The notes beneath the pieces are model-generated. The model made no database searches and was not told the DNA's origin. It was given only the letters and a program-made list of their open reading frames with translations. Below, one piece after another: positions 43,529 to 61,244 of a stretch of DNA of 64,000 nt. Both the position numbers and the translations under genes were made by a program. The DNA comes from Candidatus Gottesmanbacteria bacterium (lineage in GTDB: Bacteria > Patescibacteriota > Microgenomatia > UBA10105 > UBA927): NCBI GenBank assembly GCA_023245335.1, contig JAHFKK010000001.1, forward strand, positions 156,152 through 220,151. Direction: 5' to 3'. Numbering within the stretch: position 1 is the first letter of the stretch; the number at the start of each line of letters is the position of its first letter.

Positions 43529-44515
43529 TCAGTTTGTTTGTGGAGAGGCCCAAAGGAAATACGTTGCCTCTTGCGAAACCCCACTAGTGTCGGCGCCTGT
43601 CCCGTGAAGTAAAAGCGCCGGCATGAGACGGCCCTCCTCTTCGGCGTATACCAACAAGGTTTTGTCGATAGCAAAAGACCGAAACGTCAGCGCTCCACCA
43701 AGACCAACCGTTTGGGGGTTGTTTCCGGACACAACGGCCGCACGCTTTTGAGATAAATTTGCAATGACGTCACCCTTCGTGATAATAGGAAGCGAACCCG
43801 CGGGAGTCAATGATTGCGGCGGGGGATTAAGCGTTGCTGACCGAATGATACCAAGATTGTCAACGACAACGGAGTTAGAGCTGGGCCCGCCCCCCGACGT
43901 TACTATGGGTATCCCTCCGAGCGTGTAAGAAAAGCTAACGCCCTGAAACACCGACGCTCCAAGAGAGTCTTGTATAGACAAACCATCAAACGGGCCGTCA
44001 AAAATTTCTATCTGTGACAGGGTGACCCCCGGGGGGAGCGCAAAGAGACCGGTGATGAATTGGCTTGCGGCCTCTGTGACGCTCGATGTAGAGGAGGGCT
44101 TGCTTCGTGCTTGAGATTGGTGAAAAACAATTGTTTTGGCCCCGCCTTGTGAGACAGTGGTGGAAAAATCCGCCCCCTCCCTTGCCCACGTTGTTGTTTC
44201 TGTCCCGGATCGAATCAACGAAGACGGGGACGCAGGAATAGAAAAGACGGACAGATTGTTAAGAACCGCCCGATCGAGTTGTGCCGGCGTGTAGTCGGTG
44301 GCAGAATACACAGGAAGCGAGGTGGGGAGTGCGGGTTGAGAGGCAAAAGAAAACACCACATTGTCCGGTTGTTGGATTTCTATAACGGGCGCCGGACGGA
44401 CAACAACGGGGGGTTGGGTTGGGGCGGCGGGCCTTACGCGACCCGAGAAAGAAAGGGAGACGACAACAACAACCAGAGACAACAAACCAATAAAAAAGAC
44501 CGTTCGACGATTCAT
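43529..44515 (-). CDS. Hypothetical membrane-anchored exported protein (last gene of T4SS-like operon)
   Basis: N-terminal TM followed by Pro/Ser/Thr-rich and beta-rich extracytoplasmic sequence. Confidence 0.4.
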   Translation of the reverse strand: MNRRTVFFIGLLSLVVVVVSLSFSGRVRPAAPTQPPVVVRPAPVIEIQQPDNVVFSFASQPALPTSLPVYSATDYTPAQLDRAVLNNLSVFSIPASPSSLIRSGTETTTWAREGADFSTTVSQGGAKTIVFHQSQARSKPSSTSSVTEAASQFITGLFALPPGVTLSQIEIFDGPFDGLSIQDSLGASVFQGVSFSYTLGGIPIVTSGGGPSSNSVVVDNLGIIRSATLNPPPQSLTPAGSLPIITKGDVIANLSQKRAAVVSGNNPQTVGLGGALTFRSFAIDKTLLVYAEEEGRLMPALLLHGTGADTSGVSQEATYFLWASPQTN

Positions 44516-44519
44516 ATGT

Positions 44520-46769
44520 TTATTGTGCGCTTACCGACCCCTGCGGGCAACCTTTTCCAACCAAGAAACAACGCAGGTCGTTGCTCACGCAGCCCAAAAT
44601 TTCGTTTTTGCTCAGTGGTGTATCAGGAAGAAGGTCTAATACGTTCCCGCCAGATAATACCCCAAAATGCAGATGTTGTCCCGAAGAATTTCCCGTTTGG
44701 TCCATCCAACCGATTTGTACGTGTGCGGGCACCGTAGCACCCTTGGTTATGGCGGGATTGATAGCCTTTTTGAGATGCCCGTAAATAATTGTATACCCGT
44801 CGTCTGTGCGCATCGTAACGTAATTTCCGTATCCCTGTCCGCACCCATTACCCAACTCCCCGGAATTGTCGTTGCAGTTGTCATTTACATATAAAATAGT
44901 GCCGGAGCGAATAGTATAAACCGCAACGTTTCCGTCGGCATAGATGTCAACCCCGTTTTTGTCCGACCCGCTCGCGTGCGACGCTTTTGGGTCACAGGTG
45001 ACGTTCGGCCCCTGAGAGATTTTGCCGCTTGTGGGCCAGCGACAGTCGCCGACACACGCTTTAAACGTACACAAGGGGTCGGTGGGATTTTTACTGCAAT
45101 CAACCGCCCCTCCCCCAGGCGGCCCCTGGTCGCCCTCTTGTTGGTAGAGCGAATCAATTACAGCCGCTGACCGAGAGCTGTTTGCGATCATGGGAAGGTT
45201 AAACGGAGAGGGGAATATAAACAGAAGGATAACCACCCCCACGGCAATGAGCCCGACGAGGAGGGGCAAATCTTCCATTATAGGCGTAGGTAATCCTGCG
45301 GCACGCCGAGACGCAGACATCTGCTGGGGTAGAAATGGACCGTAAAAAATAAACGACGTTGTTTTGTCGATTGCGGAAGAAAACAAATTTCCAAGTTGTT
45401 CTCCAAGTATGCCCAATGAGAGAAACGGAAACCAAATGGACCATTGATTTTTAGATGTTCGACCCCCCACCCCCGAACCTGACCTCGCGGCGAAGGCTTC
45501 CCATGGGGACATGCCGTTTGGTAAAAAATTGTGCCCCCTCGGCGCGTTGGCGTTTGCGCGGGCAAGCTCCATATAATCAAAGAGCCGTTCCTTGGTGGCT
45601 TGGGTAATTGCGGGATCCAGCGGCCCGCGGAAGACCGTAGAAAAAACGTCTCCGAACACCGACCCCGCCTGGGCGGTCGACGGTTTTTCGCTCAAGGATT
45701 TGGTAAGGTCCTGGGTAATATGCGTAAACACCGCCGAGTGGACAAACGTTTCTCCCAAACGATCCGTAAGCTGTTGTGTGCTTGAAAGAAGCGAACGCAG
45801 GGTTCCGTTTACTTTTTCCTTATATATAATTTCCCGGACCGGTTCTCCCACGATTGACAATAGGCCCTCTGCGGCTTGTTGTAGGCCCTTCGTCACACCC
45901 ACACCCTTGCCGTGAGTAAAAAATCCGCGTGATGACGCCGGGTGTGCCGTGTCCTGGCGCTCGATTGCTTGTGCCACCTGCGCTAACTTGATGCCCCTTA
46001 CGAGCGCAGCATCTTTTTGTCCTTCTGCGGCGTTTATCACAACGTCGGCAAGGACGTCCGGCCGCTTAAGGTCTAAGTTTTCGTAGACTGCCGCAACGAG
46101 CTCCCGTTCGGATTTGTGTGCGGCAACCGCGGTCGTGAAGTATTCCTCGTGATTGGCGAGAGCCTCTTCAATCGTGGTTTTTAAACGCGCGCGCTGATCC
46201 GGAGAGATGTCGGAGCCCGCGTAAACCTCGCTTGAAGCAGTAAGCATTTCAGCAAATCGGTCTTTGGTTTGCAGTGTCGTTGCTTCTCCCGCGGCCGCAA
46301 CCAACGACTGGTCAACGATTGAGCCAAGTTGTTTATCGGTGAGCGACGGCATCGTGGAGCTGTATTTAGATACCAACTCATGAATAAACGCCCGTCGTCG
46401 TTCTTTGTATGGTTCGAGTTTGGCGGTTGTATGTTCCCGGGCGCGCGTAACCGCCACCCGTCGAAGAGTCGCGACACTGTGTATCTCGTTTTCGTTAAGG
46501 GGAGCGTCCGGTTCAGCCCCCTGAAAACTGGGGAGTTCGCGTAATTTGTCGCTCGTGTCCGTGAATACGGTCTTGAGAAGCGCGAGTACCGCCTCGTCGT
46601 TCTGGAGAGCCGCCTCAGCAAGCTGGCCGCTTTTGGCCGTCAGCGACTCCCGTAAAAATCCATATTGCTGACAAGCGGAGAGGGCCCCCTCTGCCGTAAT
46701 GGTGCCGTTATTCAGATCGGATAATAGATTATTGGAAAATTCCAATAATGTCTGATGCGCTTCTGCCAT
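44520..46769 (-). CDS. Bitopic protein: large cytoplasmic helical domain - TM - extracytoplasmic M23 (LytM) metallopeptidase domain
   Basis: C-terminal YTIIYGHL...GNSSGQHLHFGV is the M23 HxxxD/HxH family signature. The TM is LPLLVGLIAVGVVILLFIF at ~aa 500. Positioned directly downstream of virB4. Confidence 0.7.
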   Translation of the reverse strand: MAEAHQTLLEFSNNLLSDLNNGTITAEGALSACQQYGFLRESLTAKSGQLAEAALQNDEAVLALLKTVFTDTSDKLRELPSFQGAEPDAPLNENEIHSVATLRRVAVTRAREHTTAKLEPYKERRRAFIHELVSKYSSTMPSLTDKQLGSIVDQSLVAAAGEATTLQTKDRFAEMLTASSEVYAGSDISPDQRARLKTTIEEALANHEEYFTTAVAAHKSERELVAAVYENLDLKRPDVLADVVINAAEGQKDAALVRGIKLAQVAQAIERQDTAHPASSRGFFTHGKGVGVTKGLQQAAEGLLSIVGEPVREIIYKEKVNGTLRSLLSSTQQLTDRLGETFVHSAVFTHITQDLTKSLSEKPSTAQAGSVFGDVFSTVFRGPLDPAITQATKERLFDYMELARANANAPRGHNFLPNGMSPWEAFAARSGSGVGGRTSKNQWSIWFPFLSLGILGEQLGNLFSSAIDKTTSFIFYGPFLPQQMSASRRAAGLPTPIMEDLPLLVGLIAVGVVILLFIFPSPFNLPMIANSSRSAAVIDSLYQQEGDQGPPGGGAVDCSKNPTDPLCTFKACVGDCRWPTSGKISQGPNVTCDPKASHASGSDKNGVDIYADGNVAVYTIRSGTILYVNDNCNDNSGELGNGCGQGYGNYVTMRTDDGYTIIYGHLKKAINPAITKGATVPAHVQIGWMDQTGNSSGQHLHFGVLSGGNVLDLLPDTPLSKNEILGCVSNDLRCFLVGKGCPQGSVSAQ

Positions 46770-46774
46770 GGTGG

Positions 46775-60541: not shown

Positions 60542-60544
60542 ATG

Positions 60545-60907
60545 CTATTGCGGACCGTAAATGGTCGGATTCAAGATAAAGTCCGCACGACCAAAGATAA
60601 GATACCCAAAGAGTGACGCGATGGCAAACGAGCCGACGATGATGATAAGCCCCAAGAGTGATTGCCAGATACGATCCCACGCAGAAGCGAGCTTTTTGCT
60701 GTCGCCCCCGGCGTTTATATACGCAAATCCCGCAATGAGAAAGTTAAAAAGTGCGTAAATCCCCGCAACCACAAAAAATAATCGGATGACGTTCGTGATA
60801 AACAGTCCGACCGCACCGGTTTGGACGCTTCCATAGCCGGTTTGATCCAGTGGGCTTTGGATTGATCCAACGAGATTGTCGGCGATGACACGTACCCCTT
60901 GTTGCAT
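60545..60907 (-). CDS. T4SS pilin-like protein, paralogue 5
   Basis: AGFAYINAGGDSKKLASAWDRIWQSLLGLIII. Confidence 0.6.
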   Translation of the reverse strand: MQQGVRVIADNLVGSIQSPLDQTGYGSVQTGAVGLFITNVIRLFFVVAGIYALFNFLIAGFAYINAGGDSKKLASAWDRIWQSLLGLIIIVGSFAIASLFGYLIFGRADFILNPTIYGPQ

Positions 60908-60914
60908 AAGCGTA

Positions 60915-61244
60915 TTATACCTGCGGCGATAAAATGTGCAGTCCGGTGACGACTTCTATGATCTGCACAATCCAAAATGACCCGAGAACGACAAGAAGTC
61001 CGATGACCGCGCCGGTTATAGCAGCTTTTCCCTGTTCTGCTTTTTTCGCGTCTCCTGCGGCTACTATAACTTGAAAACCACCGAATATCAATAAAATAAA
61101 ACTGATGAGACCGGCAAAAACGAATGCATTCCTGACGATTGCCGTCACAAGCGGGCCGAATGAGTTGAGATTGGGGTTGGGAGCGAGAGATTGCAAATCC
61201 ACGGCATAAACGATCATATTTTCAGTGTAGGGAATTTGAGGCAT
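60915..61244 (-). CDS. T4SS pilin-like protein, paralogue 6
   Basis: GGFQVIVAAGDAKKAEQGKAAITGAVIGLLVV. Confidence 0.6.
   Translation of the reverse strand: MPQIPYTENMIVYAVDLQSLAPNPNLNSFGPLVTAIVRNAFVFAGLISFILLIFGGFQVIVAAGDAKKAEQGKAAITGAVIGLLVVLGSFWIVQIIEVVTGLHILSPQV

What the first reader, a model, noticed from the sequence alone, without database searches (positions are those of the whole stretch)
43529..61244. CPR-type type IV secretion / pilus-like locus starting right after dnaN
A nearly contiguous set of T4SS-like parts lies in this region: VirB4 ATPase, PrgI/VirB3-like fusion, VirD4/TraG-like ATPase, VirB6/TrbL-like protein, six pilin paralogues and a bitopic M23 peptidase. A giant protein of unknown function is also present. 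Relaxase, oriT, VirB9/B10/B11 homologues and cargo/plasmid genes are not recognisable. Instead the locus sits beside the chromosomal origin (dnaA-dnaN). This matches the minimal T4SS-like apparatus conserved in ultra-small episymbiotic bacteria, which is proposed to mediate DNA uptake or host attachment rather than conjugation. The exact gene order and the accessory genes interleaved here (nadD, the giant protein, ECF sigma) are worth documenting.
Basis: partly seen in the sequence, partly recalled or inferred. Interest (0 to 1): 0.75.

Follow-up and report, generated by a model that had tools for sequence, protein, structure and literature searches.

The report
Origin-side type IV secretion locus, Gottesmanbacteria
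This is a real but typical example of the pilus-bearing type IV secretion gene cluster that ultra-small Patescibacteria (here a Gottesmanbacteria genome) keep next to their replication origin, a system already described in 2023-2025 papers, and this copy adds a few new component assignments.

Summary
Window 43529-61244 holds the following genes:
- a VirB4 ATPase (NCBIfam CD1110 family, above its cutoff)
- a PrgI/VirB3 fusion
- a coupling-protein-like ATPase with no membrane helix
- nadD
- a 1209-aa orphan protein
- a polytopic protein that matches VirB6 (TrwI) and DotA by fold only
- six VirB2-like pilins
- a bitopic M23 peptidase
- a PepSY/YycI-like partner protein

No relaxase was found among the window ORFs scanned with Pfam. 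The only recombinase is Xer-like and lies 25 kb away. DnaA boxes and the GC-skew flip place oriC about 1.2 kb from the locus.

The core gene order recurs in 78-80 of 80 Microgenomatia loci. VirB4 divergence tracks DnaA and DnaN, so the locus is vertically inherited rather than an integrated conjugative element (ICE).

This system was published by Wang 2023 and Quinonero-Coronel 2025, including its position at the origin in Microgenomatia. New here:
- fold-level identification of the "missing" VirB6
- strict one-to-one orthology of all six pilins across four genomes
- a fast-evolving family of giant tail-anchored proteins next to the coupling-like ATPase

The function (host-contact conduit, not conjugation) is inferred.

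The parts
42248..42322 (.). Context: DnaA-box cluster (likely oriC) in the dnaA-dnaN spacer, about 1.2 kb from the locus
   Evidence: Two perfect TTATCCACA boxes at 42269 and 42314, and a one-mismatch box at 42248 (a further one-mismatch box at 42166 lies inside the dnaA 3' end). GC skew changes sign near 42 kb.
42416..43525 (+). Context: dnaN (beta clamp), convergent with the VirB4 operon; the two stop codons are 3 bp apart
   Evidence: All three DNA_pol3_beta domains match. dnaN-dnaA lies downstream of virB4 in about 60 of 80 related loci.
43529..44515 (-). 328-aa bitopic protein: N-terminal TM helix, Pro-rich linker, extracellular tandem PepSY/YycI-like domains. Candidate regulator of the adjacent M23 peptidase. 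Not VirB8-like.
44520..46769 (-). 749-aa bitopic M23 metallopeptidase: about 500-aa cytoplasmic N-domain of unknown fold, one TM helix, Cys-rich extracellular M23 domain. Cell-wall-opening role analogous to VirB1.
   Evidence: PF01551 57 bits. TM helix at 501-519. Conserved SH...D, GH and HLH motifs in orthologues. N-domain has no PDB match.
46775..48754 (-). VirB4 ATPase lacking the usual N-terminal domain
   Evidence: NF045971 398.7 bits (cutoff 325), covering HMM positions 187-730 only. PDB 4ag5 E=1e-45. 54-87% identical in 80 loci. At most 38% identical to any plasmid VirB4.
48726..49388 (-). 220-aa TrsD-like protein, the split-off N-terminal domain of VirB4. Overlaps the virB4 start by 29 nt.
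   Evidence: Weak hits to VirB4_plasma HMM positions 130-281 (E=7e-7) and TrsD (E=8e-5). Present in 79 of 80 loci. Fused in frame to VirB4 in two Woesebacteria loci, L074 (914 aa) and L077 (869 aa).
49400..50725 (-). 441-aa PrgI/VirB3-like protein (two TM helices) fused to a long linker, a coiled coil and a CarboxypepD_reg-like beta-sandwich
   Evidence: PF12666 28.1 bits (gathering score 27); PF13620 25.9 bits, below its cutoff. Same architecture in Woesebacteria locus L054. Present in 78 of 80 loci.
50726..50899 (.). 174-bp divergent intergenic region between the PrgI operon and the T4CP-like operon
   Evidence: Gene coordinates. A sigma-70-like site at 50764-50736 on the minus strand is a consensus match only. 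Sequence read.
50900..53074 (+). 724-aa coupling-protein-like ATPase (VirD4/TrwB superfamily) with no TM helix and a DUF8128 N-terminal domain
   Evidence: DUF87 43.1, TrwB_AAD_bind 28.7, TraG-D_C 24.6 and T4SS-DNA_transf 23.1 bits, all above gathering scores. Best PDB matches TrwB E=9e-6 and DotL. No TM helix. PF26449 on orthologues. Full-length homologues sit next to a relaxase-like gene and T4SS genes on a Shouchella plasmid, and next to VirB4 in Streptomyces.
53083..53637 (+). nadD (nicotinate-nucleotide adenylyltransferase), a housekeeping gene embedded in the locus
   Evidence: TIGR00482 133 bits (cutoff 112). Found in this position in 39 loci; accompanied by NAD synthase in L084 and L085.
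53708..57337 (+). 1209-aa orphan 'giant' protein: no signal peptide, a single C-terminal hydrophobic helix, then an acidic, Gly-rich tail ending in HH (tail-anchored architecture)
   Evidence: No Pfam, NCBIfam or PDB match, even with a profile. Only 104 cluster representatives among 1.84 billion proteins. 23 Gottesmanbacteria loci carry a 1166-1423-aa relative at this position with the same C-terminal layout, and L036 has a 975-aa positional analogue that does not join the family.
57372..58991 (-). 539-aa polytopic membrane protein, a fold-level homologue of VirB6 and DotA
59028..59324 (-). Pilin paralogue 6 (VirB6-proximal), 98 aa
   Evidence: PF18895 31.7 bits. One-to-one orthologues in L083, L084 and L085.
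59378..59707 (-). Pilin paralogue 5, 109 aa
   Evidence: PF18895 45.2 bits. Orthology shown.
59803..60150 (-). Pilin paralogue 4, 115 aa
   Evidence: PF18895 29.2 bits. Orthology shown.
60155..60541 (-). Pilin paralogue 3, 128 aa
   Evidence: PF18895 21.1 bits, below the gathering score. Shares the TM-GGD-K-rich loop-TM layout. Orthology shown.
60545..60907 (-). Pilin paralogue 2, 120 aa
   Evidence: PF18895 20.8 bits and TrbC/VirB2 17.1 bits, both below their cutoffs. Layout and orthology shown.
60915..61244 (-). Pilin paralogue 1 (first in the operon), 109 aa
   Evidence: PF18895 25.0 bits, just below the gathering score. Layout and orthology shown.
61191..62051 (+). ECF sigma factor (longest ORF 61191-61817; the true start is probably near 61278) and a 76-aa single-TM protein (61821-62051, candidate anti-sigma factor), divergent from the pilin operon
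   Evidence: Sigma70_r2 and r4_2 domains, TIGR02937 81 bits. TM helix in the 76-aa protein. The same sigma plus 76-aa pair flanks the pilin array in L083, L084 and L085.

Best explanation
[quoted passage not shown] It is a monoderm-type machine related to the conjugation apparatus of Firmicutes and Actinobacteria. It has lost its link to a relaxase and carries VirB2-like pilins, which Gram-positive conjugation systems lack.

Proposed working (the parts are shown; the steps are inferred):
1. The M23 peptidase cuts a passage through the peptidoglycan. Its activity may be held in check by the co-transcribed PepSY/YycI-like membrane protein.
2. The VirB6-like polytopic protein forms the membrane platform.
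3. PrgI/VirB3 docks the VirB4 ATPase, which here is made of two polypeptides (TrsD-like N-domain plus ATPase).
4. VirB4 powers extraction of the six different pilins from the membrane and their assembly into a surface filament.
5. A soluble coupling-protein-like ATPase, encoded divergently with nadD and a giant tail-anchored protein, delivers or receives the substrate.
6. The neighbouring ECF sigma / anti-sigma pair may control the pilin-VirB6 operon.

The machine most likely links the epibiont to its host cell and moves macromolecules (protein or nucleic acid; direction unknown). It is most likely not a conjugation system.
For: Shown here:
- Family membership of VirB4, PrgI, the pilins, M23 and the T4CP-like ATPase.
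- VirB6-like fold of the 539-aa protein.
- The TrsD-like gene is fused to VirB4 in two relatives.
- PrgI-TrsD-VirB4 is present in 78-80 of 80 Microgenomatia loci, with dnaN-dnaA downstream in about 60.
- VirB4 identity correlates with DnaA and DnaN identity (Spearman 0.86 and 0.88, n=59), and VirB4 is the more conserved protein in 59 of 59 loci.
- No relaxase in any window ORF scanned; the only recombinase is Xer-type and 25 kb away.
- oriC signals lie about 1.2 kb away.
- All six pilins are individually conserved in the same order in four genomes.
- Conservation falls from cytoplasmic to exposed parts: VirB4 70%, T4CP-like 66%, VirB6-like 42%, M23 38%, the 328-aa protein 26%.

From the literature:
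- The homologous Saccharibacteria cluster (SEML1_0006-0019), including its pilin array, is essential for epibiotic growth and lacks a relaxase (PMC10633639; PMC12857230).
- The Patescibacteria VirB4 clade, TrsD, pilin arrays and dnaA/dnaN proximity in Microgenomatia are described in PMC12102498.
- Tubular structures that may be T4SS pili were seen between a cultivated parasite and its host (bioRxiv 10.64898/2026.06.21.733656).
Against: - No functional data exist for any Gottesmanbacteria. The substrate, the transport direction and even pilus formation are inferred.
- The PrgI hit is barely above its cutoff, and three pilins fall below theirs.
- The VirB6 assignment rests on a model with pLDDT 77 and on helical-bundle similarity. 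Foldseek E-values are weak (0.015-0.3) and TM-scores are low.
- No VirB8-like component was found.
- The T4CP-like ATPase has no membrane anchor and is absent from the Woesebacteria versions of the locus, so it may not belong to the machine.
- The proposed regulatory roles of the PepSY-like protein and of the ECF sigma rest on adjacency and analogy only.
Confidence: 0.8

Rival explanations
1. It is an integrated conjugative element, or a decayed remnant of one, that happens to sit next to dnaN.
For: The VirB4 belongs to the CD1110 family typical of Firmicutes ICEs. A T4CP-like ATPase is present, and its full-length plasmid homologues sit beside a relaxase-like gene. GC content is slightly higher across 44-58 kb (0.51-0.53) than in the left half of the window (about 0.48).
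Against: No relaxase was found in the window, and there is no integrase or direct-repeat boundary at the locus. The same order and the same junction with dnaN-dnaA occur in about 60 genomes from two candidate phyla-level groups. VirB4 divergence tracks DnaA and DnaN, and VirB4 is more conserved than either. The nearest plasmid VirB4 is at most 38% identical. Housekeeping nadD is embedded in the locus.
Confidence: 0.03
2. It is a DNA-uptake machine (like ComB of Helicobacter or the archaeal Ced system) that imports host DNA as a nucleotide source or for transformation.
For: The coupling-like ATPase carries the TrwB DNA-binding-domain signature. There are partial NCBIfam hits to CedB (51.5 bits) and CedD (45.3 bits). 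These organisms lack nucleotide synthesis (PMC10633639). In ABY1, T4SS genes co-localise with competence genes (PMC12102498).
Against: The CedB and CedD scores are far below their cutoffs (700 and 600) and, for CedD, cover only the Walker A region. In Southlakia, competence needs type IV pili and ComEC, and deleting comEC does not affect viability, whereas the T4SS is essential (PMC12857230). The T4CP-like gene is missing from the Woesebacteria loci.
Confidence: 0.12
3. It is mainly an adhesion organelle: the pilus only attaches the epibiont to its host, and nothing is translocated.
For: Six surface-exposed pilins and fast-evolving extracellular parts. No recognised substrate or effector gene.
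Against: A complete ATPase / VirB3 / VirB6 inner-membrane set plus a coupling-like ATPase is retained under strong purifying selection. Patescibacteria already use type IV pili for adhesion (PMC12857230). Strict conservation of each of six pilins fits structural specialisation better than variable adhesins do.
Confidence: 0.1

Closest known systems
Patescibacteria-clade T4SS (Southlakia epibionticum SEML1_0006-0019, Wang et al. 2023; survey by Quinonero-Coronel et al. 2025)
   Same: Chromosomal, beside the origin, with no relaxase. Contains VirB4 of the MPF-FATA-related clade, TrsD, PrgI/VirB3, a VirB6-like protein, a peptidase downstream of virB4, and an array of six divergent VirB2-like pilins.
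   Different: - This is the Gottesmanbacteria version. A coupling-like ATPase is adjacent, whereas the survey reports only 148 of 5,713 such genes near virB4.
- nadD and a lineage-restricted giant tail-anchored protein are inserted between the two T4SS operons.
- VirB6 is undetectable by sequence (the survey calls VirB6 scarce in Microgenomatia) but is recovered here by fold.
- A PepSY/YycI-like protein follows the peptidase.
Gram-positive conjugative T4SS of the MPF-FATA class (pGO1/pSK41 trs, pCF10 prg, CTn2 CD1110 family, pLS20-like Bacillaceae plasmids)
   Same: Monoderm architecture without VirB7/9/10. VirB3-like, TrsD and VirB4 genes are present as named in pGO1 (PMC12102498). VirB4 scores above the CD1110 cutoff. 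The coupling-like ATPase is homologous over about 90% of its length to a DUF87 protein encoded next to a replication-relaxation gene on a Shouchella plasmid.
   Different: No relaxase or oriT. Pilins are present, which Gram-positive systems lack. The hydrolase is M23 rather than the transglycosylase/CHAP type of VirB1. No VirB8-like protein was found. The chromosomal position is fixed. VirB4 is at most 38% identical.
R388 Trw / Agrobacterium VirB-VirD4 (diderm type A T4SS) and the Legionella Dot/Icm protochannel
   Same: VirB2-like pilins with two hydrophobic helices and a basic loop. The 539-aa protein model superposes best on TrwI/VirB6 and DotA. The VirB4 and TrwB-like ATPases are homologous.
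   Different: No VirB5, B7, B9, B10 or B11. There are six pilins rather than one major pilin. The pilins have no long cleaved signal peptide. VirB4 is split into two genes.
Actinobacterial VirB4 locus (Streptomyces sp. BHT-5-2 p1, 2.18-2.19 Mb; SCO6880-family context)
   Same: Adjacent TrsD-like, VirB4 (37% identity) and DUF8128-type coupling-like ATPase (27% identity over 94% of its length) in the same order, with a weak pilin-like hit upstream.
   Different: The record is unannotated and its function is unknown. The rest of the Patescibacteria gene set was not detected there by tblastn.

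Membership tests
Patescibacteria-clade T4SS (MPF-FATA-related) | VirB4 ATPase of the monoderm (CD1110 / MPF-FATA-like) type | tested here: met
   NF045971 398.7 bits against a cutoff of 325; 4ag5 E=1e-45. The closest relatives are all Gottesmanbacteria or Patescibacteria.
Patescibacteria-clade T4SS (MPF-FATA-related) | TrsD-like protein encoded next to virB4 | tested here: met
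   Weak NCBIfam hits (TrsD E=8e-5; VirB4_plasma N-region E=7e-7). Present in 79 of 80 loci. In-frame fusion to VirB4 in L074 and L077.
Patescibacteria-clade T4SS (MPF-FATA-related) | VirB3/PrgI-like membrane protein | tested here: met
   PF12666 28.1 bits against a gathering score of 27 (marginal); 29.7 bits in the L054 orthologue. Two TM helices. Position upstream of TrsD-VirB4 conserved in 78 of 80 loci.
Patescibacteria-clade T4SS (MPF-FATA-related) | Array of VirB2-like pilins near virB4 | tested here: met
   Six PF18895 hits, three above the gathering score. Shared TM-loop-TM layout. 23-29% identity to the first copy, as in the published arrays.
Patescibacteria-clade T4SS (MPF-FATA-related) | No associated relaxase; chromosomal, origin-proximal position | tested here: met
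   No relaxase family in any window ORF scanned. DnaA boxes and GC-skew flip at about 42.3 kb. Conserved junction with dnaN.
VirB6 / TrbL / PrgH family | Sequence match to the VirB6/TrbL or PrgH profiles | tested here: not met
   No Pfam hit for the protein or for any of its 21 full-length orthologues at E<=1. A profile search of the PDB, which holds TrwI, found nothing.
VirB6 / TrbL / PrgH family | Polytopic membrane protein (5 or more TM helices) with a VirB6-like fold, encoded in the T4SS cluster | tested here: met
VirD4/TrwB-type coupling protein (T4CP) | Nucleotide-binding domain with the T4CP signature and all-alpha domain | tested here: met
   TrwB_AAD_bind 28.7 (gathering score 20.5), TraG-D_C 24.6 (22) and T4SS-DNA_transf 23.1 (20.1). 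TrwB is the best PDB match, aligning at Walker A and B. No NCBIfam T4CP equivalog cutoff is reached.
VirD4/TrwB-type coupling protein (T4CP) | N-terminal transmembrane anchor | tested here: not met
   No hydrophobic segment in the window protein, and no N-terminal one in any of the 11 orthologues checked. The N-terminal 330 aa are a soluble DUF8128 domain.
VirD4/TrwB-type coupling protein (T4CP) | Genetic link to a relaxase/substrate module | tested here: not met
   No relaxase in the window. The neighbours are nadD and the giant orphan protein. Plasmid homologues do sit beside a replication-relaxation gene.
VirB8 / PrgL / TraM / TcpC (NTF2-like bitopic T4SS component) | Bitopic protein with an NTF2-like extracellular domain in the cluster | tested here: not met
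VirB1-type cell-wall hydrolase | Lytic transglycosylase or CHAP domain | tested here: not met
   Only Peptidase_M23 was detected. The role is analogous, but the protein is not a homologue. Peptidases downstream of virB4 are also reported as essential in Southlakia.
Integrated conjugative element | Relaxase, integrase and element boundaries; variable insertion site | tested here: not met
   None found. The position is fixed in about 60 genomes. The Xer-like recombinase at 17685-18545 is separated from the locus by housekeeping genes.
Diderm type A T4SS (VirB/VirD4) | Outer-membrane core VirB7/B9/B10 and the VirB11 ATPase | tested here: not met
   No such Pfam or NCBIfam hits in any ORF of the locus.
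Ced / ComB DNA-import systems | CedB/CedD or ComB equivalogs | tested here: not met
   CedB 51.5 bits against a cutoff of 700; CedD 45.3 bits against 600, covering only residues 322-393.

The most novel reading that the evidence does not exclude
The six pilins may be non-redundant subunits of a hetero-oligomeric T4SS filament, or a fixed set of major and minor pilins. That would contrast with the T4SS pili of known structure, which I recall (not checked here) are built from a single VirB2-type subunit. It would also argue against the reading of the array as paralogues amplified for antigenic or host-range variation.

Each pilin has its own orthologue, in the same gene order, in four Gottesmanbacteria genomes whose VirB6-like proteins are only 39-58% identical. 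A six-gene array is also reported in Saccharibacteria.

A linked possibility concerns the coupling-like ATPase, which has no membrane helix. The giant tail-anchored protein encoded beside it might tether it to the membrane, or might be its substrate.
Probability: 0.25. Interest if true: 0.65.

Novelty: new member of a known kind. Interest (0 to 1): 0.4.

Why it matters
The Patescibacteria T4SS is the only T4SS known to be essential for its owner's growth, and its substrate and mode of action are unknown. This locus does not change that picture.

It does offer a clean, well-conserved Microgenomatia reference map:
- It identifies the VirB6 component that HMM surveys could not find in this class.
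- It shows that VirB4 is a two-gene protein here, and a single fused gene in some relatives.
- It shows that the six pilins are each conserved, which narrows the hypotheses about what the filament is.
- It flags a lineage-specific pair (anchor-less coupling ATPase and giant tail-anchored protein) as a candidate substrate or adaptor module that could be tested.

Tried and rejected
- **539-aa protein:** Pfam scans of the protein and of 21 orthologues, and a profile search of PDB sequences, found nothing. Only the fold search worked.
- **Giant protein:** no match in Pfam, NCBIfam or the PDB, even with a profile. The full-length query exceeded the size limit of the representative search, so a 1195-aa version was used.
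- **Woesebacteria 906-aa ORF at the giant's position:** hhalign probability 0.3%, so it is not a detectable homologue. Its neighbours also have no Pfam hits.
- **TrsD-like profile against the PDB:** only weak matches to DciF/prenyltransferase chains, which I treat as spurious; no VirB4 N-domain match.
- **M23 N-domain and DUF8128 profiles against the PDB:** nothing significant.
- **Suspected degenerate M23 active site** (Lys where LytM has His): dropped, because orthologues conserve an upstream SH...D motif together with GH and HLH.
- **oriT-like inverted repeats:** none stand out in the intergenic regions.
- **Exact-sequence look-up of the window's VirB4:** not on record. The 539-aa and 328-aa proteins are 100% identical to proteins on a 1,218,111-bp contig.
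- **afdb50 fold library:** unavailable.
- **Literature search for DUF8128:** no papers.

Full report
**Observation.** From left to right the region reads:
- dnaA, 40795-42237(+)
- dnaN, 42416-43525(+)
- a 328-aa bitopic protein, 43529-44515(-)
- a 749-aa M23 peptidase, 44520-46769(-)
- VirB4, 46775-48754(-)
- a 220-aa ORF, 48726-49388(-)
- a 441-aa PrgI fusion, 49400-50725(-)
- a 724-aa T4CP-like ATPase, 50900-53074(+)
- nadD, 53083-53637(+)
- a 1209-aa orphan protein, 53708-57337(+)
- a 539-aa polytopic protein, 57372-58991(-)
- six small pilin genes, 59028-61244(-)
- an ECF sigma factor plus a 76-aa membrane protein, 61191-62051(+)
- a Yip1 protein and HMG-CoA reductase

The closest relatives of VirB4 (75-88% identity) are Candidatus Gottesmanbacteria. 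The 539-aa and 328-aa proteins are identical to proteins on a 1.22-Mb contig.

**Identity of the parts.**
- VirB4 scores 398.7 bits on NCBIfam conju_CD1110 (cutoff 325) and E=1e-45 against the Thermoanaerobacter VirB4 structure 4ag5. It covers only HMM positions 187-730, so the usual N-terminal domain is missing.
- That missing domain is the neighbouring 220-aa ORF. It gives weak hits to the N-region of a mycoplasma VirB4 model and to TrsD. It accompanies VirB4 in 79 of 80 related loci. It is fused in frame to VirB4 in two Woesebacteria genomes, L074 (914 aa) and L077 (869 aa).
- PrgI is marginal (28.1 bits against 27). Its position and its C-terminal beta-sandwich fusion are conserved across Microgenomatia.
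- The six pilins share two hydrophobic helices joined by a GGD-K-rich loop. They are 23-29% identical to the first copy.
- The M23 protein has about 500 cytoplasmic residues, one TM helix and a Cys-rich extracellular catalytic domain with conserved metal-ligand motifs.

**The coupling-like ATPase.** It passes the Pfam gathering scores for three T4CP families, and its best PDB match is TrwB. It has no transmembrane helix, and neither do its orthologues at the N-terminus. Its N-terminal 330 residues are DUF8128, for which no literature was found. Full-length homologues exist in two informative contexts: next to a replication-relaxation gene and T4SS genes on a Shouchella clausii plasmid, and directly after TrsD-like and VirB4 genes in a Streptomyces replicon. 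It therefore works like, and is related to, the coupling ATPases of monoderm conjugation systems. It fails two defining features of a classical T4CP: the membrane anchor and the link to a relaxase.

**The giant protein.** It has no detectable relatives outside a narrow family: 104 cluster representatives among 1.84 billion proteins, nearly all 1150-1590 aa. In 23 Gottesmanbacteria loci a 1166-1423-aa protein occupies the same position after the T4CP-like gene and nadD (L036 has a 975-aa positional analogue that does not link to the others). These 23 proteins join into one family only by transitive similarity. They share a C-terminus made of basic residues, one hydrophobic helix, acidic residues and, in most copies, a Gly-rich tail ending in H or HH. 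Woesebacteria have unrelated large ORFs at that position, with no C-terminal helix. Its role is unknown. Anchor or adaptor for the anchor-less ATPase, or substrate of the system, are speculative options.

**Not a mobile element.**
- PrgI-TrsD-VirB4 is present in 78-80 of 80 loci drawn from Gottesmanbacteria and Woesebacteria genomes, with dnaN-dnaA convergent downstream in about 60.
- VirB4 identity correlates with DnaA and DnaN identity (rho 0.86 and 0.88, n=59). VirB4 is more conserved than both in every locus.
- No relaxase was found in any window ORF scanned. The one tyrosine recombinase (17685-18545) is Xer-like and separated from the locus by aminoacyl-tRNA synthetases, EF-P and other housekeeping genes.
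- No repeat boundaries were seen.
- The best plasmid VirB4 is at most 38% identical.

**Origin.** Two perfect and two one-mismatch DnaA boxes lie in or at the edge of the dnaA-dnaN spacer, and GC skew changes sign there. The locus therefore starts about 1.2 kb from oriC. Both T4SS operons are on the minus strand, which is head-on to the rightward replication fork. Almost all other genes in the window are co-oriented with replication.

**Pilins.** Each of the six paralogues has a reciprocal best match at the same ordinal position in three other genomes (L083, L084, L085), in 18 of 18 comparisons, with diagonal scores roughly 1.3- to 2.5-fold the best off-diagonal scores. The array is therefore old, and each member is kept by selection. 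This fits six distinct structural roles better than recent amplification for variation, which is the explanation offered in the survey.

**Comparison with the literature and verdict.** This system has been described before:
- Wang et al. 2023 showed that the homologous Saccharibacteria cluster, including its pilins, is essential and lacks a relaxase.
- Quinonero-Coronel et al. 2025 described the Patescibacteria VirB4 clade, TrsD, PrgI, the pilin arrays, the lack of relaxases, and dnaA/dnaN proximity in Microgenomatia specifically.
- A 2025 review summarises the conduit hypothesis.
- A 2026 preprint reports tubular structures that may be T4SS pili at a parasite-host interface.

The window is a new member of a known kind. 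The incremental points are the fold-level VirB6, the split-versus-fused VirB4, the PepSY-like partner of the peptidase, the fixed six-pilin orthology, and the Gottesmanbacteria-specific module of T4CP-like ATPase, nadD and giant protein. The function (a host-contact conduit rather than conjugation) remains inferred.

Noticed in passing
window 42248-42322 and the minus-strand operons 43529-50725 and 57372-61244: With oriC in the dnaA-dnaN spacer, both T4SS operons are head-on to replication, while nearly all other genes in the window are co-oriented with it. This orientation relative to dnaN-dnaA is conserved in about 60 loci. The published 'gene dosage' explanation for origin proximity, as read here, does not address it.
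   Followed up: partly
window 17685-18545 (+), next to tRNA-Met 17123-17195: A Xer-type tyrosine recombinase (Phage_integrase plus SAM_1 domains) sits beside a tRNA gene. It is 25 kb from the T4SS and separated from it by housekeeping genes, so it is not an ICE integrase for this locus.
   Followed up: partly
L074 9119-11863 and L077 9152-11761: In two Woesebacteria genomes the TrsD-like gene and virB4 form one ORF (914 and 869 aa) joined by a Pro/Gly-rich linker. This is a natural fusion that identifies TrsD as the VirB4 N-domain.
   Followed up: yes
C-termini of the giant proteins, window 57200-57337 and the 23 loci: Most of the giant proteins end in basic residues, one hydrophobic helix, acidic residues and a Gly run ending in H or HH (for example GGGGGGGHH), even where the rest of the sequence is barely alignable. 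No known sorting signal of this form comes to mind.
   Followed up: partly
L007, L019 and L022, C-terminal domain of the M23-position protein: In three loci the extracellular M23 domain appears to be replaced by a different domain carrying an HExxH-like motif (HELAHQ / HELGHG). This suggests domain swapping of the cell-wall hydrolase module.
   Followed up: no
L086 (Streptomyces sp. BHT-5-2 p1, 2179489-2199552), about 3600-11150: An unannotated Streptomyces locus has a weak pilin-like hit, then TrsD-like, VirB4 (37% identity) and a DUF8128-type coupling-like ATPase in the same order as the Patescibacteria core. It may be a close non-CPR relative of this system.
   Followed up: partly
window 61191-62051, with L083, L084 and L085: An ECF sigma factor and a 76-aa single-TM protein (a likely anti-sigma factor) are divergent from the pilin operon. 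Yip1 and mevalonate-pathway genes follow in all four genomes checked. The sigma factor may regulate the pilin-VirB6 operon.
   Followed up: partly
window 10586-12526 (-): A class I Trp/Tyr-type tRNA synthetase carries an N-terminal YbaK-like editing domain and a C-terminal tRNA-binding domain. To my knowledge this three-part architecture is unusual.
   Followed up: no
window 37678-39090 (-) and 39166-40869 (-): Two large ORFs (470 and 567 aa) immediately left of dnaA have no Pfam match. The 470-aa one is conserved beside dnaA in four related loci.
   Followed up: no
window 15089-15159 (+): ARAGORN calls a tRNA-Met here, but Rfam's tRNA model does not reach its gathering score at this site. The other two tRNAs are confirmed by both tools.
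   Followed up: no
window 323-2056 (-) and 62695-63858 (+): The genome encodes an ATP-dependent (archaeal/eukaryal-type) DNA ligase and an HMG-CoA reductase. Relatives carry a full mevalonate operon next to the reductase (L083-L085).
   Followed up: no
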